Source: a phage
Sequence record: MZ956761.1
Direction: 5' to 3' (one strand)
DNA length: 64,000 bases
This document shows positions 36,085-61,557 of the stretch, one piece after another. A program made the position numbers and the translations under genes. Position 1 is the first letter of the stretch; the number at the start of each line of letters is the position of its first letter. The notes under the pieces are model-generated. The model was not told the origin of the DNA, searched no databases, and saw only the letters and a list, made by a program, of their open reading frames with translations.

Positions 36085-36489
36085 ATGATTACAGTAGATA
36101 AGTGGTTTAGAATTAATCGTGCTGATACAGGGCTGTGTAATTACTGGCCGGAACTTAGTGCAGGTGCTGTCTTTAAAGTTCGTGAACTTGCAAAAGAATG
36201 TGAAGATGATATAGAACCTGATACTGGAATTATTGAAATTGAACTTTCTGATGGAAAGATTATTAACATCTACGATAAGCCAATTACGTATTGGTGCTTA
36301 TGGAATACTGAATCAGTAGAAAATGGCGAAATTGAAGAAGTTGTAGAGAGAACTAATCAAGTTGTTCAGAAGCCTAAAGCCGATTTTCAAGGTGAACGCA
36401 TTTCATACGCATTAGCTAAATTAGCTGCACAAGAAAATAACGATGGTTATGAAGGAAATTTAATGCAAGCTTGCCGCAGAGTACATTGA
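36085..36489 (+). CDS. Hypothetical protein
   Basis: 134 aa from ATG 36085 (RBS GGAGATGGG). Confidence 0.45.
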   Translation: MITVDKWFRINRADTGLCNYWPELSAGAVFKVRELAKECEDDIEPDTGIIEIELSDGKIINIYDKPITYWCLWNTESVENGEIEEVVERTNQVVQKPKADFQGERISYALAKLAAQENNDGYEGNLMQACRRVH

Positions 36490-51565: not shown

Positions 51566-54262
51566 ATGAAAGAATTTTATATCTCTATCGAAACAGTCGG
51601 AAATAACATTGTTGAGCGTTATATTGATGAAAATGGAAAGGAACGTACTCGTGAAGTAGAATATCTTCCGACTATGTTTAGGCATTGTAAGGAAGAGTCA
51701 AAATACAAAGACATTTATGGTAAAAACTGTGCTCCTCAAAAATTTCCATCAATGAAAGATGCACGAGACTGGATGAAGCGAATGGAAGACATCGGTCTCG
51801 AAGCTCTCGGTATGAACGATTTTAAACTCGCTTATATCAGTGATACATATGGTTCAGAAATTGTTTATGACCGAAAATTTGTTCGTGTAGCTAACTGTGA
51901 CATTGAGGTTACTGGTGATAAATTTCCTGACCCAATGAAAGCAGAATATGAAATTGATGCTATCACTCATTATGATTCAATTGACGACCGTTTTTACGTC
52001 TTTGATTTGTTGAATTCAATGTACGGTTCAGTATCAAAATGGGACGCAAAGTTAGCTGCTAAGCTTGACTGTGAAGGTGGTGATGAAGTTCCTCAAGAAA
52101 TTCTTGACCGAGTAATTTATATGCCATTTGATAATGAGCGTGATATGCTCATGGAATATATTAATCTCTGGGAACAGAAACGACCTGCTATTTTTACTGG
52201 TTGGAATATTGAGGGATTTGACGTTCCGTATATCATGAATCGCGTTAAAATGGTTCTCGGCGAACGTAGTATGAAACGCTTCTCTCCAATCGGTCGAGTA
52301 AAATCTAAACTAATTCAAAATATGTACGGTAGCAAAGAAATTTATTCTATTGATGGCGTATCTATTCTTGATTATTTAGATTTATACAAGAAGTTTGCAT
52401 TTACTAATTTGCCATCGTTCTCTTTGGAATCAGTTGCTCAACATGAAACCAAAAAAGGTAAATTGCCGTACGATGGTCCTATTAATAAACTTCGTGAGAC
52501 TAATCATCAACGATACATTAGTTATAACATCATTGACGTAGAATCAGTTCAAGCAATTGATAAAATTCGTGGGTTTATCGATCTAGTTTTAAGTATGTCT
52601 TATTACGCTAAAATGCCTTTTTCTGGTGTAATGAGTCCTATTAAAACTTGGGATGCTATTATTTTTAACTCACTGAAAGGTGAACATAAGGTTATTCCTC
52701 AACAAGGTTCGCACGTTAAACAGAGTTTTCCAGGTGCATTTGTGTTTGAACCTAAACCGATTGCTCGTCGATACATTATGAGTTTTGACTTGACGTCTCT
52801 GTATCCTAGCATTATTCGTCAGGTTAACATTAGTCCTGAGACTATTCGCGGGCAGTTTAAAGTTCATCCAATTCATGAATATATCGCAGGAACAGCTCCT
52901 AAGCCAAGTGATGAATATTCTTGCTCTCCGAATGGATGGATGTATGATAAGCACCAAGAAGGTATCATTCCAAAGGAAATCGCTAAAGTATTTTTCCAGC
53001 GTAAAGATTGGAAAAAGAAAATGTTCGCGGAAGAAATGAATGCCGAAGCTATTAAAAAGATTATTATGAAAGGTGCAGGGTCTTGCTCAACTAAACCAGA
53101 AGTTGAACGATATGTTAAGTTCAGTGATGATTTCTTAAACGAATTATCGAATTACACCGAATCTGTTCTTAACAGTCTGATTGAAGAATGTGAAAAAGCG
53201 GCTACACTTGCTAACACAAATCAGCTGAACCGTAAAATTCTTATTAACAGTCTTTATGGTGCTCTTGGTAATATTCATTTCCGCTACTATGATTTGCGAA
53301 ATGCTACTGCTATCACAATTTTCGGTCAAGTTGGTATTCAGTGGATTGCTCGTAAAATTAATGAATATCTGAATAAAGTATGTGGAACTAATGGTGAAGA
53401 TTTCATCGCAGCAGGTGATACTGATTCGGTATATGTTTGTGTAGATAAAGTAATTGAAAAAGTAGGTCTTGACCGCTTTAAAGAACAAAATGATTTAGTT
53501 GAATTCATGAATCAGTTTGGTAAGAAAAAGATGGAACCTATGATTGATGTTGCATATCGTGAGTTATGTGATTATATGAATAACCGCGAGCATCTGATGC
53601 ATATGGACCGTGAAGCTATTTCTTGCCCTCCGCTTGGTTCAAAGGGTGTTGGTGGATTTTGGAAAGCGAAAAAACGTTATGCTCTGAACGTTTATGATAT
53701 GGAAGATAAGCGATTTGCTGAACCGCATCTAAAAATCATGGGTATGGAAACTCAGCAGAGTTCAACACCAAAAGCAGTACAAGAAGCTCTCGAAGAAAGT
53801 ATTCGTCGTATTCTTCAGGAAGGTGAAGAGTCTGTCCAAGAATACTACAAGAACTTTGAGAAAGAATATCGTCAACTTGATTATAAAGTTATTGCTGAAG
53901 TAAAAACTGCGAACGATATAGCGAAATATGATGATAAAGGTTGGCCAGGATTTAAATGTCCGTTCCATATTCGTGGGGTGCTAACTTATCGTCGAGCTGT
54001 TAGTGGTTTAGGTGTAGCTCCAATTTTGGATGGAAATAAAGTAATGGTTCTTCCATTACGTGAAGGAAATCCATTTGGTGACAAGTGCATTGCTTGGCCG
54101 TCGGGCACAGAACTTCCAAAAGAAATTCGTTCTGACGTACTGTCTTGGATTGACTACTCAACTTTGTTCCAAAAATCGTTTGTTAAACCGCTTGCGGGCA
54201 TGTGTGAATCGGCTGGTATGGACTATGAAGAAAAAGCTTCGTTAGACTTCCTGTTTGGCTGA
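51566..54262 (+). CDS. 43: DNA polymerase gp43 (family B)
   Basis: 898 aa; exonuclease and polymerase motifs incl. YGDTDS. Confidence 0.95.
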   Translation: MKEFYISIETVGNNIVERYIDENGKERTREVEYLPTMFRHCKEESKYKDIYGKNCAPQKFPSMKDARDWMKRMEDIGLEALGMNDFKLAYISDTYGSEIVYDRKFVRVANCDIEVTGDKFPDPMKAEYEIDAITHYDSIDDRFYVFDLLNSMYGSVSKWDAKLAAKLDCEGGDEVPQEILDRVIYMPFDNERDMLMEYINLWEQKRPAIFTGWNIEGFDVPYIMNRVKMVLGERSMKRFSPIGRVKSKLIQNMYGSKEIYSIDGVSILDYLDLYKKFAFTNLPSFSLESVAQHETKKGKLPYDGPINKLRETNHQRYISYNIIDVESVQAIDKIRGFIDLVLSMSYYAKMPFSGVMSPIKTWDAIIFNSLKGEHKVIPQQGSHVKQSFPGAFVFEPKPIARRYIMSFDLTSLYPSIIRQVNISPETIRGQFKVHPIHEYIAGTAPKPSDEYSCSPNGWMYDKHQEGIIPKEIAKVFFQRKDWKKKMFAEEMNAEAIKKIIMKGAGSCSTKPEVERYVKFSDDFLNELSNYTESVLNSLIEECEKAATLANTNQLNRKILINSLYGALGNIHFRYYDLRNATAITIFGQVGIQWIARKINEYLNKVCGTNGEDFIAAGDTDSVYVCVDKVIEKVGLDRFKEQNDLVEFMNQFGKKKMEPMIDVAYRELCDYMNNREHLMHMDREAISCPPLGSKGVGGFWKAKKRYALNVYDMEDKRFAEPHLKIMGMETQQSSTPKAVQEALEESIRRILQEGEESVQEYYKNFEKEYRQLDYKVIAEVKTANDIAKYDDKGWPGFKCPFHIRGVLTYRRAVSGLGVAPILDGNKVMVLPLREGNPFGDKCIAWPSGTELPKEIRSDVLSWIDYSTLFQKSFVKPLAGMCESAGMDYEEKASLDFLFG

Positions 54263-54275
54263 TAGAATAAATCTA

Positions 54276-54296
54276 GGGACCTCCGGGTCCCTTTTT
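54276..54296 (+). terminator. Rho-independent terminator
   Basis: gggacc-tccg-ggtccc plus TTTTT. Confidence 0.75.
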
Positions 54297-54377
54297 CATA
54301 CAAGTAATATAAATCTATACTTATGAAAAACAGATGATTCTGGACCTTTAGAATTCCCCAAAAAATTTTCACAAAAC

Positions 54378-54407
54378 TGTTTACAAGACTGTTCTTCCAT
54401 GGTACTA
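54378..54407 (+). promoter_or_regulatory. Early promoter (GTTTAC-N18-TACTAT)
   Basis: GTTTAC 54378-54383, TACTAT 54402-54407. Confidence 0.55.
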
Positions 54408-54442
54408 TACAACTATCAACTAATACGGATTTGGAGAATAAA

Positions 54443-54679
54443 ATGAAAATTGTTATGGGATGCTTAGCAGTTTGTTTAGTTGCATTAGCAGCTGTTCCAT
54501 TTATTGATATTGAAAATGATACTCAGAATGTGATTGAATCTAATACTGTTATTCACATGAATGGTAAAGTATCAACAAAAATTGATGATAATCTTCATAT
54601 GAATACTAATGGAACGCTGGGTGTTCAATTAGGTAATACCTGTGTAAGCACTACTGGAGTAATTACTACTTGTATTTGA
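54443..54679 (+). CDS. Small secreted or membrane-anchored protein
   Basis: 78 aa from ATG 54443 (RBS GGAGAATAAA); hydrophobic N-terminus. Confidence 0.45.
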   Translation: MKIVMGCLAVCLVALAAVPFIDIENDTQNVIESNTVIHMNGKVSTKIDDNLHMNTNGTLGVQLGNTCVSTTGVITTCI

Positions 54680-54689
54680 GGAAATTATT

Positions 54690-55070
54690 ATGAAAATCGC
54701 TATTTTGGTTATTGCATTAGGTCTTACTGGTTGTGTAGCTCAAGGACCGGTAGTAAATCAGTCTGATGTAGGAAAAATTGTAAACTGTTCAAGCAAATTT
54801 TATAATCCTAATGTCAAGTGTTATAAAGAAGCTCCAAAACAGACAGTAGAACAAATGCAGGCGAATTTTGACGAAGCTATTCGTCCAGATGAATCTGCTC
54901 AAGCATATCGTAATTCGGATGTAATTACACGCGAAGAAAAAATTGAAAACTACTGCGCTGAACTTTGGGCTAATTGGGCTAATAATTACCAATGGCGTAC
55001 TGGTAAAAATGCTCCGATGGAGTATGTAGTGAATTCTTATAATTCATGTGTAAAAAATTTGACTAAGTGA
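54690..55070 (+). CDS. Putative lipoprotein
   Basis: 126 aa; signal peptide with lipobox LTGC. Confidence 0.5.
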   Translation: MKIAILVIALGLTGCVAQGPVVNQSDVGKIVNCSSKFYNPNVKCYKEAPKQTVEQMQANFDEAIRPDESAQAYRNSDVITREEKIENYCAELWANWANNYQWRTGKNAPMEYVVNSYNSCVKNLTK

Positions 55071-55077
55071 GGAAAAC

Positions 55078-55329
55078 ATGGAAACTTTAGTAGCAGGTTC
55101 AATTTTTATGGTTTTAGTTTCAGGTGTGTTGGCTATTATTATATACATGCTTCCATGGTTTATCGCCTTGATGCGTGGGTCAAAATCGACAGTAGGAATC
55201 TTTTTCACATCTTTACTGTTTAACTGGTCAATTATTGGTTGGTTTATTACATTTATTTGGTCAATTGCGGGTGAAACTAAAAAGTCTGCACAACCAAATC
55301 AGGTAATTATCATCAGAGAGAAGGAATGA
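55078..55329 (+). CDS. imm: Superinfection immunity protein Imm
   Basis: 83 aa two-helix membrane protein between 43 and 42. Confidence 0.7.
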   Translation: METLVAGSIFMVLVSGVLAIIIYMLPWFIALMRGSKSTVGIFFTSLLFNWSIIGWFITFIWSIAGETKKSAQPNQVIIIREKE

Positions 55330-55475
55330 AAAGCAAAATTATAGCAGTGTTGCTTTTAATCTTGATGATTATAATAAGTATATACTATAGTGTAACGGTT
55401 CCTCTTATGATTCCAACTATTATTTTAGGTTGGGGTTTATTACTGTTACAAGTTAAATATGAATGTATCAATTGA
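55326..55475 (+). CDS. Small membrane protein (49 aa)
   Basis: ATGA overlap with imm; not in track. Confidence 0.3.
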   Translation: MKSKIIAVLLLILMIIISIYYSVTVPLMIPTIILGWGLLLLQVKYECIN

Positions 55476-55482
55476 GGTTTAA

Positions 55483-56223
55483 ATGATTAGTGACTCTATG
55501 ACAGTTGAAGAAATCCGTCTTCATTTGGGGCTTGCATTAAAAGAAAAAGATTTCGTAGTTGATAAAACCGGTGTTAAAACTATTGAAATTATTGGTGCAT
55601 CATTTGTAGCAGATGAACCGTTTATTTTTGGCGCTCTTAATGATGAATACATTCAACGTGAACTTGAATGGTATAAATCTAAAAGTTTGTTTGTTAAAGA
55701 TATTCCGGGTGAAACACCGAAGATTTGGCAGCAGGTAGCATCTTCTAAAGGCGAAATTAACTCGAATTATGGTTGGGCCATCTGGTCAGAAGATAACTAT
55801 GCCCAGTATGATATGTGTTTAGCTGAACTTGGTCAAAATCCTGATTCTCGGCGTGGTATCATGATTTATACTCGTCCATCCATGCAATTTGACTATAATA
55901 AAGATGGTATGTCAGATTTCATGTGCACGAATACAGTACAGTACCTGATTCGTGATAAGAAAGTTAATGCAGTAGTAAGCATGCGTTCAAATGACGTGGT
56001 CTTCGGATTCCGTAATGATTATGCATGGCAAAAATACGTACTAGATAAATTAGTATCTGATTTGAATGCAGGTGATTCAACTCGTCAGTATAAAGCAGGT
56101 TCTATTATATGGAATGTTGGAAGTCTTCATGTATATTCTCGTCATTTTTACTTGGTTGATCATTGGTGGAATACTGGCGAAACTCATATTGTGAAAAAAG
56201 ATTATAAAGGTGAGTGGAAATGA
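55483..56223 (+). CDS. 42: dCMP hydroxymethylase gp42
   Basis: 246 aa thymidylate-synthase-like fold; position before the glucosyltransferase locus. Confidence 0.9.
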   Translation: MISDSMTVEEIRLHLGLALKEKDFVVDKTGVKTIEIIGASFVADEPFIFGALNDEYIQRELEWYKSKSLFVKDIPGETPKIWQQVASSKGEINSNYGWAIWSEDNYAQYDMCLAELGQNPDSRRGIMIYTRPSMQFDYNKDGMSDFMCTNTVQYLIRDKKVNAVVSMRSNDVVFGFRNDYAWQKYVLDKLVSDLNAGDSTRQYKAGSIIWNVGSLHVYSRHFYLVDHWWNTGETHIVKKDYKGEWK

Positions 56224-57062
56224 TTCAATTCGTAATTCCAAGCTATCAACGCGTAGGGGCAGTTTCTGCCCTTGATATGTTTCCGACTGATTATGAACCT
56301 CATATTGTAGTACGTGAACACGAAGAAAAAGCTTATTATGACGCTTACGGGTCTAGAGCTAAAATTATAACTATTCCTGATGATGTTAACGGAATTGCTG
56401 GTACTCGTAAAGCAATTACTGATATGTATGCAGGTCAACGAATTTGGATGATTGATGATGATACTACTATTCGTATGAGTTCAATGCGAAAGAAAGATGA
56501 TCGTCGCTGCGTAGATAAAATTAATCAATTAACTCGTGAACAGTTCTATGAATTGATTCAATACGTTGAAGATGCCATGGATTGCGGGTATTATCATGGT
56601 CATGCTCGTTTACCAATTTTTAAAATTACTTCATCTTGGGGTAATTATCGTGAAAATTCATATGGATTCACGAATACTTGGTATGACCTCGGGAAACTTA
56701 CAACAGAACAAATTGGGTATGGAAAAATTGATTTATGCGAAGATATGTATGCATTTCTCAATTTAATTAATCAAGGTTATCCGCATTTGGCCTTGTTCAA
56801 ATATCTGGTTGTATCTGGAAAAGCACAGGCTCCAGGCGGATGTAGTTCAATTCGTAGTAATTCAAAACATAATAGAGCTCTTGAGCAAATCAATAGAGAG
56901 TTTCCAGAGCAAGCTCGTTGGAAAACATCGAATATCGAAAAGAGAAAATCGTTGGGTGAAGAAGACGAGCCATTAAAAGTTCTTCGCATGTGTGTTTCGC
57001 GCAAAGAAAAATCAGAAGCATTTCATAAGTTTAATGCTATTCATCCAATAGCAGTTGATTAA
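56214..57062 (+). CDS. Glycosyltransferase at the beta-gt locus (possibly T2/T6-type beta-glucosyl-HMC-alpha-glucosyltransferase)
   Basis: 282 aa; DxD-type motif IWMIDDDTTI; occupies the slot where T4 has beta-gt but does not look like T4 beta-gt. Confidence 0.5.
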   Translation: MEMIQFVIPSYQRVGAVSALDMFPTDYEPHIVVREHEEKAYYDAYGSRAKIITIPDDVNGIAGTRKAITDMYAGQRIWMIDDDTTIRMSSMRKKDDRRCVDKINQLTREQFYELIQYVEDAMDCGYYHGHARLPIFKITSSWGNYRENSYGFTNTWYDLGKLTTEQIGYGKIDLCEDMYAFLNLINQGYPHLALFKYLVVSGKAQAPGGCSSIRSNSKHNRALEQINREFPEQARWKTSNIEKRKSLGEEDEPLKVLRMCVSRKEKSEAFHKFNAIHPIAVD

Positions 57063-61263: not shown

Positions 61264-61557
61264 ATGAAAAAATTTGTTTTTGCTGCAATTTTTGCTTTGG
61301 CTTCTTGTACTGCTCAGCCTGCTATGGCGGGTTATGATAAAGATTTGTGTGAATGGTCTATGACTGCAGATCAGACTGAGGTTGAAACTCAAATTGAAGC
61401 AGATATTATGAATATCGTTGAGCGTGATCGTCCTGAAATGAAAGCTGAAGTGCAAAAACAGCTTAAGTCTGGTGGTGTAATGCAGTATAATTATGTTCTG
61501 TATTGCGATAAAAACTTTAATAATAAAAATATCATCGCTGAAGTGGTAGGTGAGTAA
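61264..61557 (+). CDS. sp: Spackle periplasmic protein
   Basis: 97 aa; signal peptide MKKFVFAAIFALASCTAQPAMA; position between dmd and 61. Confidence 0.65.
   Translation: MKKFVFAAIFALASCTAQPAMAGYDKDLCEWSMTADQTEVETQIEADIMNIVERDRPEMKAEVQKQLKSGGVMQYNYVLYCDKNFNNKNIIAEVVGE

What the first reader, a model, noticed from the sequence alone, without database searches (positions are those of the whole stretch)
54443..55070. Secreted protein and lipoprotein directly upstream of imm
A 78-aa ORF with hydrophobic N-terminus and a 126-aa ORF with a lipobox signal peptide (LTGC) precede the superinfection-immunity gene under one early promoter. Envelope-targeted products grouped with imm are plausible superinfection-exclusion or envelope-remodelling factors.
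Basis: partly seen in the sequence, partly recalled or inferred. Interest (0 to 1): 0.4.

Follow-up and report, generated by a model that had tools for sequence, protein, structure and literature searches.

The report
Lipoprotein gene partnered with phage imm
Two small exported-protein genes precede the superinfection-immunity gene of this T4-like phage: imm.1 is a lipoprotein gene that sits next to imm in every T4-like lineage checked, making it a candidate for Imm's long-suspected helper, while the other is a fast-evolving optional gene that T4 itself lacks.

Summary
After the gene 43 terminator and a T4-early-type promoter come a 78-aa ORF (54443-54679), imm.1 (54690-55070), imm, a 49-aa membrane ORF and gene 42, tightly packed.

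- **imm.1:** it is the annotated T4 gene (Pfam DUF5481, function unknown). It meets the PROSITE lipoprotein rule, and T4 omics data class it as an early RNA and early protein.
- **Family size:** DUF5481 is tiny, with 6 clusters among 1.84 billion representatives. Every lineage lies directly upstream of an Imm gene.
- **Linkage:** in Mosigvirus the pair has moved next to spackle. Five further T4-like genera have no detectable DUF5481. They still carry a probably distantly homologous lipoprotein beside imm. Only 2 of 34 more distant Imm loci have any lipobox ORF nearby, and those are unrelated.
- **ORF78:** it is a real gene (dN/dS 0.39, neighbours 0.005-0.07) but optional. T4 lacks it, and in Dhakavirus dhabil it sits elsewhere.

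Best reading: imm.1 is the periplasmic partner of Imm in superinfection exclusion. This is inferred, not shown. ORF78 is an unrelated accessory exported protein.

The genes are already annotated. The conserved lipoprotein-Imm module makes an old open question testable.

The parts
54275..54292 (+). Intrinsic terminator-like hairpin ending the gene 43 transcript
   Evidence: 7-bp stem with 5 GC pairs, followed by TTTTTCATACA. Conserved in T4. Annotated as a terminator in the DalCa and fPS-2 records.
54380..54408 (+). T4-early-type sigma-70 promoter-like site
   Evidence: TTTACA-17-TACTAT with TG before the -10 element, preceded by G so that it reads GTTTACA. Identical in T4. fPS-2 annotates a 'predicted early promoter' at the equivalent place. 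T4 imm.1 is in the early RNA class. This is a consensus match; no transcription start was mapped here.
54443..54679 (+). ORF78: optional gene for a small exported protein, with an N-terminal signal or anchor, about 60 beta-rich periplasmic residues and a C-terminal Cys67...Cys77 pair
   Evidence: Matches phrog_4189 and no Pfam family. Found in 326 phage records, mostly at 80-90% identity. dN/dS 0.39. Absent from T4 between two ATGAAAAT repeats. The AF2 model shows helix 3-16 plus six short strands, pLDDT 66. No fold match.
54690..55070 (+). imm.1: DUF5481 lipoprotein, with signal peptide 1-14, lipobox LTG|C15, a flexible tether and a disulfide-bearing helical domain
   Evidence: PF17578 at E 5e-72. 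PS00013 rule met. 99% identical to T4 imm.1. dN/dS 0.037. Cys89 and Cys120 are invariant, and Cys33/Cys44 are present together or absent together. AF2 predicts four helices over residues 53-125 at low confidence.
55078..55329 (+). imm: superinfection immunity inner-membrane protein
   Evidence: PF14373 at E 7.7e-16 and phrog_1039. 98.8% identical to T4 Imm. Starts 7 nt after the imm.1 stop codon.
55326..55475 (+). 49-aa two-segment membrane ORF (called 42.1 in the T4T record), whose start overlaps the imm stop codon (ATGA)
   Evidence: phrog_3610 at E 5.7e-26. Intact but unannotated in T4 NC_000866. Homologous 46-49-aa ORFs follow imm in L017 and in Gaprivervirus. dN/dS 0.27.
61264..61557 (+). 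sp (spackle): the second known exclusion gene, unlinked here but adjacent to imm.1-imm in Mosigvirus
   Evidence: 96% identical to T4 Sp. The Mosigvirus JS09 order is 61.4 - imm.1 - imm - sp - 61.2, against T4's 61.4 - sp - 61.2.

Best explanation
SHOWN: the interval carries two genuine genes for exported proteins. They lie at the head of a compact early unit: promoter, ORF78, imm.1, imm, 42.1/ORF49, gene 42.

imm.1 encodes a signal-peptidase-II-type precursor (MKIAILVIALGLTG|C). Its family does not occur apart from an Imm gene.

INFERRED, location and shape:
- After lipidation at Cys15, the residue at +2 is Val rather than Asp. Under the E. coli +2 sorting rule the protein would therefore go to the inner leaflet of the outer membrane.
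- A roughly 35-residue flexible tether carries the invariant YNPxxKxY motif.
- A four-helix domain then hangs into the periplasm, stapled by the invariant Cys89-Cys120 pair.

INFERRED, function: Imm.1 is the periplasmic partner of the inner-membrane protein Imm in T-even superinfection exclusion.
- It may position or stabilise Imm at injection sites, or it may block the incoming tail-tube tip from engaging the inner membrane.
- Imm.1 at the outer membrane and periplasm, Spackle at the peptidoglycan and Imm at the inner membrane would then seal the three envelope layers within minutes of infection.
- It is an accessory that improves efficiency, not a strict requirement.

ORF78 is a separate, optional cassette.
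- It encodes a small exported, beta-rich protein with a disulfide loop, and it evolves fast.
- It rides on the same promoter but is not part of the imm module.
- Its role is unknown. It is most likely another periplasmic factor in competition between phages.
For: 1. Export signals. imm.1 meets PS00013. The lipobox Cys is kept in 5 of 6 DUF5481 lineages that have diverged to 33-44% identity. The sixth lineage has a classic AHA|S signal-peptidase-I site, so export is kept in all six. Cys33/Cys44 appear or vanish together, and Cys89/Cys120 are invariant, which is the pattern expected for periplasmic disulfides.

2. Strict linkage to imm.
- An exhaustive HMMER search of 1.84 billion representatives finds only 6 clusters. 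All five lineages sit immediately upstream of PF14373 Imm.
- In Mosigvirus the pair left the 43-42 slot together and landed between 61.4 and sp.

3. The theme extends beyond DUF5481.
- All 15 T4-like Imm loci from IMG/VR have a lipobox ORF adjacent on the same strand. Only 2 of 34 more distant Imm loci have one, and both are unrelated.
- Lipoproteins of 146-167 aa beside imm occur in Gaprivervirus, Gelderlandvirus, Moonvirus, Dhakavirus IME08, Klebsiella phage Shark_ER15 and Serratia phage PS2.
- A profile-profile comparison of the mature DUF5481 proteins against mature Gaprivervirus, Gelderlandvirus and Moonvirus lipoproteins gives probability 82% and E 1e-5. Profile scores tie IME08 (91 bits) and Shark_ER15 (33 bits) to that group; the PS2 score is weak (8 bits).

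4. Strong constraint and expression. dN/dS is 0.037. The T4 protein is classed as early RNA and early protein.

5. Tight packing. imm starts 7 nt after imm.1, and ORF49 overlaps the imm stop codon.

6. Literature. [quoted passage not shown] No paper held in the library names that partner or mentions DUF5481.

7. ORF78.
- It is absent from T4.
- It sits in another genomic context in Dhakavirus dhabil, with the same RBS and spacer boundaries.
- It is present in 326 records, against about 502 with T4-type imm.1.
- Its dN/dS is 0.39.
Against: - No functional test exists.
- From my memory of Lu and Henning 1989 (not readable here), plasmid-borne imm alone excludes T4, so imm.1 cannot be essential for the basic effect. 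Classical screens yielded imm and sp mutants, not imm.1.
- Adjacency could reflect only shared early expression of envelope proteins.
- One lineage (P0021) lost the lipid-attachment Cys.
- The PS00013 rule also fires on Spackle. Spackle is reported as a soluble 75-aa periplasmic protein after signal cleavage, so the pattern alone does not prove lipidation.
- The AF2 model of imm.1 is poor (pLDDT 55.7), and neither model matches any solved fold.
- The homology between DUF5481 and the other imm-linked lipoproteins rests on an 82% hhalign probability from shallow alignments.
- The quoted statement about a missing partner comes from a secondary review.
Confidence: 0.45

Rival explanations
1. Imm.1 is an early periplasmic or outer-membrane protein with a job other than blocking DNA entry. 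Candidates are protection against lysis from without or killing by ghosts, shaping the periplasmic signal for lysis inhibition, inhibiting a host periplasmic enzyme, or remodelling the outer membrane. On this view it sits beside imm only because envelope-targeted early genes are co-expressed.
For: - Export and early expression fit any envelope role.
- imm and sp mutants both affect lysis inhibition and lysis from without, so the neighbourhood is tied to several envelope phenotypes (review PMC6832632).
- No homology points to a specific activity.
Against: - Linkage to imm specifically survives a relocation, inversions of gene order and divergence past the HMMER detection limit. That is more than co-expression requires.
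- Other early envelope genes, such as sp in Tequatrovirus, are not kept next to imm.
Confidence: 0.3
2. Imm.1 is a receptor-masking lipoprotein like T5 Llp or the Cor proteins of phi80, T1 and N15. It would bind the phage's outer-membrane receptor from the periplasmic side, stopping further adsorption and protecting progeny from cell debris.
For: - It is a small phage-encoded lipoprotein, expressed early, and predicted to reach the outer membrane.
- Llp is the textbook precedent (PMC9586334 appeared in the search results; I did not read it).
Against: - Imm.1 is at least 95% identical in about 500 Tequatrovirus records. These were isolated on Escherichia, Shigella, Yersinia, Salmonella, Citrobacter, Proteus and other hosts, and from my own knowledge T-even phages use different receptors (OmpC, Tsx, FadL, OmpA). 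A receptor-specific blocker should co-vary with the receptor.
- There is no Pfam, PHROG, PDB-sequence or fold similarity to any known family other than DUF5481.
- From my own knowledge, T-even exclusion acts after adsorption.
Confidence: 0.07
3. The lipobox is incidental. Imm.1 would be cleaved by signal peptidase I (for example after Ala17) or stay anchored by its N-terminal helix, as reported for Spackle despite its lipobox-like ALASC. It would then be a soluble or inner-membrane periplasmic protein rather than an outer-membrane lipoprotein.
For: - Spackle matches PS00013 in both Tequatrovirus and Mosigvirus, yet its mature form is described as 75 aa after signal cleavage.
- One imm.1 lineage has Phe in place of the Cys and an AHA|S site.
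- A -3/-1 site exists after Ala17.
- The older T4 GenBank record AF158101 and the T4T record call imm.1 a 'predicted membrane protein'.
Against: - The Cys is kept in 5 of 6 DUF5481 lineages and in all 11 imm-linked lipoproteins outside DUF5481, although the surrounding sequence has diverged almost completely.
- The short h-region of about 10 residues is typical of signal-peptidase-II substrates (established knowledge of lipoprotein signal peptides).
Confidence: 0.15
4. ORF78 is a dispensable, possibly decaying or selfish filler gene that contributes nothing to exclusion. Its fast evolution would reflect relaxed constraint rather than an arms race.
For: - It is absent from T4 and from about a third of Tequatrovirus records.
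- dN/dS is 0.39 overall and 0.56 in the central part.
- Its signal peptide carries 7-aa tandem duplications in some alleles.
- Shigella phage CT01 keeps only a scrambled remnant.
Against: - dN/dS is still below 1 with dS similar to the neighbours. The frame is open in all 10 distinct alleles, and the C-terminal 20 residues have dN/dS 0.15.
- The gene is kept in most Tequatrovirus records (326) and in Dhakavirus at 62% identity.
- The conserved Cys pair and the export signal suggest a folded periplasmic product.
Confidence: 0.2

Closest known systems
T4 gene imm.1 (UniProt P18057; Pfam PF17578 / DUF5481; phrog_1754)
   Same: This is the same gene. It is 99% identical to T4 imm.1, in the same position between genes 43 and imm, and hits the Pfam model at 239 bits against a cut-off of 27.
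   Different: The window allele has lipobox LTGC (T4 has LAGC) and one extra C-terminal residue from a 1-nt indel. The family has no assigned function. The RefSeq product name 'iduronate sulfatase' has no support from the family searches here.
T4 Imm (PF14373) and Spackle (gp61.3): the two known T-even superinfection-exclusion proteins
   Same: All are small early proteins aimed at the envelope. Imm.1 is co-transcribed with Imm, and in Mosigvirus the three genes are contiguous. Like Spackle, it is predicted to be a small helical periplasmic domain with a disulfide.
   Different: There is no sequence similarity to Spackle and no fold match. Imm.1 carries a lipid anchor signal, and no phenotype has been assigned to it.
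T5 Llp and the Cor proteins of phi80/T1/N15: phage lipoproteins that block the FhuA receptor
   Same: All are small phage-encoded lipoproteins, made early and thought to act from the periplasmic face of the outer membrane to exclude further infection.
   Different: No homology was detected. Imm.1 is nearly invariant across phages isolated on different hosts, so a receptor-specific lock is unlikely. It is paired with an inner-membrane protein, which Llp and Cor are not (my own knowledge).
phrog_4189 (ORF78 family; no Pfam family and no T4 gene name)
   Same: ORF78 matches the profile end to end at E 2e-28.
   Different: The family has no function assigned. UniRef labels one allele 'Lipoprotein'. 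That label fits only the alleles with a 7-aa duplication, which creates an LAAC lipobox. It does not fit the window allele.

Membership tests
Pfam DUF5481 (PF17578) = T4 Imm.1 family | Score above the curated gathering threshold over the full domain | tested here: met
   239.2 bits against a cut-off of 27, residues 22-124 on profile positions 1-103 of 103.
Bacterial-type lipoprotein (signal peptidase II substrate) | PROSITE PS00013 pattern, with Cys at position 15-35 and K/R in the first 7 residues | tested here: met
   imm.1 matches with ILVIALGLTGC, Cys15 and K2. ORF78 in the window does not match.
Bacterial-type lipoprotein (signal peptidase II substrate) | Conservation of the lipid-attachment Cys among homologues | tested here: met
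   Kept in 5 of 6 DUF5481 lineages and in all 11 other imm-linked lipoproteins. One lineage has Phe instead.
Bacterial-type lipoprotein (signal peptidase II substrate) | Actual lipid modification and globomycin-sensitive processing | not testable with these tools
   This needs palmitate labelling or globomycin treatment. Caveat: Spackle also matches the pattern but is described as cleaved to a soluble 75-aa protein.
Outer-membrane (Lol-sorted) lipoprotein | No Asp at position +2 after the lipidated Cys (the E. coli +2 rule, established knowledge) | tested here: met
   The +2 residue is V in the window, T4 and P0024, G in Mosigvirus, and A, S or Q in the others. None is D.
Llp/Cor-type receptor-blocking lipoproteins | Sequence or fold relationship to Llp or Cor | tested here: not met
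   The Pfam, PHROG, NCBIfam, PDB-sequence and Foldseek searches return nothing except DUF5481/phrog_1754.
Llp/Cor-type receptor-blocking lipoproteins | Specific binding to the phage's own outer-membrane receptor | not testable with these tools
   Indirect evidence points against it: at least 95% identity across about 500 Tequatrovirus records from many host genera.
T-even superinfection-exclusion system (Imm/Sp) | Physical and transcriptional linkage to imm, conserved across lineages | tested here: met
   All DUF5481 lineages and all T4-like Imm loci examined have the lipoprotein adjacent on the same strand. The pair relocated together in Mosigvirus.
T-even superinfection-exclusion system (Imm/Sp) | Exclusion phenotype: block of DNA entry, or immunity to ghosts, when the gene is present or absent | not testable with these tools
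The library holds no paper reporting an imm.1 phenotype.
Spackle (gp61.3) family | Sequence similarity to Sp | tested here: not met
   BLASTP gives no alignment with E up to 100.
Sec signal peptide (ORF78) | Positive n-region, apolar h-region, small residues at -3 and -1 | tested here: inconclusive
   K2, a 16-residue apolar run and an ALA|A site are present. However, the 19 uncharged residues between K2 and D22 could also form a signal-anchor. The N-terminal Cys residues are not conserved. SignalP was not available.
T4 early transcription unit | Early-promoter consensus upstream, terminator before it, early expression kinetics | tested here: met
   Consensus matches are present and the sequence is identical in T4. 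T4 imm.1 is early in both RNA and protein. The transcription start site itself was not mapped.

The most novel reading that the evidence does not exclude
Imm.1, possibly together with the 49-aa protein 42.1, is the unidentified 'other membrane protein' that Imm was said in 1993 to need. An outer-membrane-tethered lipoprotein and the inner-membrane Imm would form a complex spanning the envelope at the phage entry site. That complex would stop the incoming tail tube from fusing with the inner membrane. The lipoprotein-Imm pair would be an ancient two-component exclusion module shared by T4-like phages well beyond what Pfam DUF5481 currently captures.
Probability: 0.3. Interest if true: 0.65.

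Novelty: new member of a known kind. Interest (0 to 1): 0.42.

Why it matters
- **An unsolved mechanism.** Imm was one of the first superinfection-exclusion factors described, yet how an 83-residue membrane protein stops DNA injection is still unknown. A review citing the 1993 Lu, Stierhof and Henning paper says it needs another membrane protein.
- **A concrete candidate.** A lipoprotein gene that stays next to imm across at least eight named T4-like genera, and that moved with it next to spackle, is a cheap candidate to test. It also suggests that exclusion covers all three envelope layers.
- **Annotation.** The result corrects a misleading RefSeq product name and widens a tiny Pfam family to a probable superfamily.
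- **ORF78.** It marks a recombination-prone slot just after gene 43. Different phages carry different small early genes there.
- **Practical use.** Exclusion modules matter when designing phage cocktails from T-even phages.

Tried and rejected
- **Fold assignment.** AF2 models were poor for imm.1 (pLDDT 55.7) and moderate for ORF78 (66.3). Foldseek against the PDB gave nothing below E = 2 for either. Weak ORF78 matches to adenovirus fibre shaft and tail-fibre repeats (E about 2.6) were set aside as chance.
- **Sequence searches.** Profile searches against PDB sequences, PADLOC and NCBIfam gave only noise.
- **Imm.1 as a Spackle relative.** Rejected, because there is no alignment at all.
- **ORF78 as a lipoprotein through Cys7 or Cys11.** Rejected. 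It fails PS00013, and those Cys residues are Ser or Val in Dhakavirus homologues.
- **Lipoproteins next to two distant Imm homologues (L044, L050).** Checked and found unrelated.
- **A C-terminal Q-V-I-I-I-R-E tail on Imm as a marker for having the lipoprotein partner.** It holds for most T4-like loci. It fails for Serratia phage PS2, which has the lipoprotein but a tail-less 57-aa Imm, so I do not rely on it.
- **Literature searches using 'imm.1'.** These mostly matched journal abbreviations and were wasted. The T4 genome review and both primary Imm papers are not held in the library.
- **Counting T4-type deletion junctions by megablast.** The tool joins aligned pieces, which confounded the count.
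- **IMG/VR as a source of ORF78 loci.** It gave only four.
Full report
**Identity of the window and layout.** The 1.2 kb between genes 43 and 42 is 100% identical to Escherichia phage ADUt (Tequatrovirus). It is 97-98% identical to hundreds of other T-even genomes.

On the + strand the order is:
- gene 43, 51566-54262;
- a GC-rich hairpin with a T run, 54275-54292;
- a promoter-like site, GTTTACA-17-TACTAT with an upstream TG, 54380-54408;
- ORF78, 54443-54679;
- imm.1, 54690-55070;
- imm, 55078-55329;
- a 49-aa membrane ORF, 55326-55475;
- gene 42, from 55483.

The gaps between coding regions are 10, 7, -4 (the ORF49 start overlaps the imm stop, ATGA) and 7 nt. Each start except that of the overlapping ORF49 has a GGAG or GAGG motif 5-8 nt upstream. 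The fPS-2 and DalCa records annotate the same terminator, and fPS-2 annotates a 'predicted early promoter' at the equivalent position.

**The 126-aa ORF is T4 imm.1.**
- It is 99% identical to T4 imm.1 and matches Pfam DUF5481 at 239 bits.
- Its N-terminus, MKIAILVIALGLTGC, satisfies the complete PROSITE lipoprotein rule. Only three of 977 candidate start sites in the window do so.
- One of the other two is spackle. Spackle is described as a soluble 75-residue periplasmic protein after signal cleavage, so the pattern alone is not proof of lipidation.
- T4 supplementary omics tables class imm.1 as early RNA and early protein.
- Within Tequatrovirus it is under strong purifying selection. Its dN/dS is 0.037 at dS 0.12, similar to imm (0.066) and gene 42 (0.045).

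**The imm.1 family.** A filter-free HMMER profile search of 1.84 billion representatives found six clusters. Two of those are fragments of the T4 type.

The alignment shows:
- The lipobox Cys is kept in all lineages but one. That one has LAGF...AHA|S, a signal-peptidase-I type signal.
- The residue after the Cys is never Asp.
- The motifs YNPxxKxY and YRxS are invariant.
- The pair Cys89/Cys120 is invariant.
- A second pair, Cys33/Cys44, is either present together or absent together.

Paired Cys behaviour of this kind is what periplasmic disulfides look like. AF2 gives a low-confidence model (pLDDT 55.7). Residues 1-49 are disordered, and four helices span 53-125. There is no fold match and no similarity to spackle.

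**Linkage to imm.** This is the main result. Every DUF5481 lineage lies directly upstream of a PF14373 Imm gene:

| Lineage | Gene order |
|---|---|
| Tequatrovirus (window, T4) | 43 - [ORF78] - imm.1 - imm - ORF49 - 42 |
| Metagenomic contig L017 | 43 - Frd3-like - imm.1 - imm - ORF49 |
| L018 | 43 - imm.1 - imm - 42 |
| L020 | 43 - imm.1 - imm - 42 - glycosyltransferase |
| Mosigvirus JS09 | dmd - 61.4 - imm.1 - imm - sp - 61.2 |

T4 has dmd - 61.4 - sp - 61.2. In Mosigvirus the pair therefore moved as a unit and landed next to the other exclusion gene.

I then collected 49 Imm loci from IMG/VR and scanned within 800 nt of each for lipobox ORFs.
- All 15 T4-like loci have one adjacent on the same strand.
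- Among the 34 more distant Imm homologues only two have any, and those proteins are unrelated.

The T4-like loci without detectable DUF5481 are:
- Gaprivervirus VR7/VR20/VR26: imm - 47-aa ORF - 167-aa lipoprotein;
- Gelderlandvirus CGG4-1/STML-198/Melville: 148-aa lipoprotein - imm;
- Moonvirus Merlin/CF1: 146-aa lipoprotein - imm.

Three further lineages fetched on purpose as possible exceptions also conform:
- Dhakavirus IME08: imm - 166-aa lipoprotein;
- Klebsiella phage Shark_ER15: 147-aa lipoprotein - imm;
- Serratia phage PS2: a 148-aa lipoprotein gene overlapping the imm start.

With signal peptides removed, a profile-profile comparison of DUF5481 against the Gaprivervirus, Gelderlandvirus and Moonvirus lipoproteins gives 82% probability and E 1e-5. 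The aligned stretch is 77 columns, running from the lipidated Cys to the first conserved Cys. Profile scores tie IME08 (91 bits) and Shark_ER15 (33 bits) to that group, while the PS2 score is weak (8 bits). They also share a Cys...Cys pair near the C-terminus. I read them as probable distant homologues, and at the least as proteins of the same architecture.

**What this suggests.** Imm blocks DNA transfer across the inner membrane, and Spackle inhibits the gp5 tail lysozyme in the periplasm. [quoted passage not shown] I could not read the primary paper.

A lipoprotein that is early, exported, strongly constrained, packed tightly against imm and never found apart from imm is the obvious candidate for that partner. 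The small membrane protein 42.1/ORF49 is a second, less widely conserved candidate.

The mechanism I favour has three parts:
- an outer-membrane anchor;
- a flexible tether carrying the invariant YNPxxKxY motif;
- a disulfide-stapled helical head that either contacts Imm or obstructs the tail-tube tip.

All of this is inference.

Points against:
- From memory, plasmid-borne imm alone already excludes T4.
- Classical genetics never hit imm.1.
- One lineage dropped the lipid Cys.
- The structural models are weak.

A receptor-masking role like that of T5 Llp is unlikely. Imm.1 is at least 95% identical across about 500 Tequatrovirus records from many host genera, and it has no similarity to known families.

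**The 78-aa ORF is a different story.** It is a real gene:
- It matches phrog_4189.
- It occurs in 326 phage records.
- Its frame is open in 10 distinct alleles.
- Its dN/dS is 0.39 overall and 0.15 in the last 20 codons.

Its product has an N-terminal signal or signal-anchor. It also has about 60 Asn/Thr/Ser/Gly-rich residues, modelled as six short strands, and a mostly conserved Cys67...Cys77 pair.

It is not a lipoprotein in this allele. Cys7 and Cys11 fail the rule and are not conserved. However, alleles with a 7-residue duplication in the signal peptide acquire an LAAC lipobox.

It is optional and mobile:
- T4 lacks exactly the 247 nt between two ATGAAAAT repeats, so T4 imm.1 uses what is ORF78's ribosome-binding site here.
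- Shigella phage CT01 has a scrambled remnant.
- L017 carries an Frd3-family gene in the same slot.
- In Dhakavirus dhabil the 62%-identical homologue sits near the nudix and lysozyme genes, with nearly the same flanking RBS and spacer. In another Dhakavirus, IME08, the imm-lipoprotein pair sits after gene 43.
- Its protein identity among Tequatroviruses is 82-92%, where the flanking genes are 97.6-100%.

I see no evidence tying it functionally to imm.

**Verdict.** The genes are already annotated (imm.1, DUF5481, phrog_4189), so nothing categorically new is present.

What the analysis adds is threefold:
- a lipoprotein-Imm module conserved across T4-like phages;
- its co-relocation next to spackle;
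- a specific, cheap test of an old open question.

Interest is moderate.

Noticed in passing
window 55326-55475 (+): A 49-aa two-segment membrane ORF whose ATG overlaps the imm stop codon. It is conserved (phrog_3610; dN/dS 0.27) and intact in T4, but it is not annotated in T4 RefSeq NC_000866. The T4T record calls it 42.1. Homologous 46-49-aa ORFs follow imm in L017 and in Gaprivervirus, so it may belong to the imm module.
   Followed up: partly
T4 NC_000866 26636-27013 (= window 54690-55070): RefSeq names T4 imm.1 and several orthologues 'iduronate sulfatase'. No sulfatase family matches the protein; only DUF5481 does. The product name looks like an annotation error that has spread to other records.
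   Followed up: partly
window 61264-61557 (+): Spackle (96% identical to T4 Sp) also satisfies the PROSITE lipoprotein rule (ALASC, Cys15). The Cys is kept in Mosigvirus Sp (AVSC). The literature describes a soluble 75-aa mature protein cleaved after residue 22. Whether any Sp is lipidated in vivo seems worth checking.
   Followed up: partly
L015 (Shigella phage CT01) 909-1746: The locus is scrambled: leader plus imm.1 codons 1-36, then ORF78 codons 28-64, then a second partial leader, then full-length imm.1. This looks like a recombination scar between ORF78-containing and ORF78-less arrangements, or possibly an assembly artefact.
   Followed up: partly
ORF78 alleles P0006, P0012, P0014; L026 1845-2102; L006 1426-1683: Some alleles carry 7-residue tandem duplications (CLVALAA) inside the signal peptide, giving 85-aa proteins. 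The duplication creates a canonical LAAC lipobox at Cys18, which explains the UniRef name 'Lipoprotein' for that cluster.
   Followed up: partly
slot between gene 43 and imm.1 (window 54263-54689; L017 262-717): The slot varies between phages. It is empty in T4, L018 and L020, holds ORF78 in ADUt-type phages, and holds a 70-aa Frd3-family gene (PF05798) in metagenomic contig L017.
   Followed up: partly
window 56214-57062 (+): The gene after 42 is a 282-aa glycosyltransferase of the TET-associated family (PF20691, E 1e-9). T4 has its 351-aa beta-glucosyltransferase there. T4's segA homing endonuclease between that gene and uvsX is also absent here.
   Followed up: no
Imm C-termini: window 55294-55326; L027, L029, L031, L034, L074: Most T4-like Imm proteins end in a conserved Q-[VI]-I-[IV]-[IV]-[RK]-E tail that is missing from distant Imm homologues. 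Serratia phage PS2 Imm (57 aa) lacks it even though it has the adjacent lipoprotein.
   Followed up: partly
window 54296-54412 (-), and ADUt record CDS 36279-36383 (-): The ADUt record annotates a 34-aa hypothetical protein on the opposite strand, inside the terminator-promoter spacer. It lies over regulatory sequence that is conserved in T4 and is probably a spurious gene call.
   Followed up: no
L071 (Yersinia phage fPS-2) 1129-1278: The CDS following imm.1 is annotated as only 150 nt ('Phage immunity'), where a 252-nt imm is expected. This could be a truncated imm or a mis-call.
   Followed up: no
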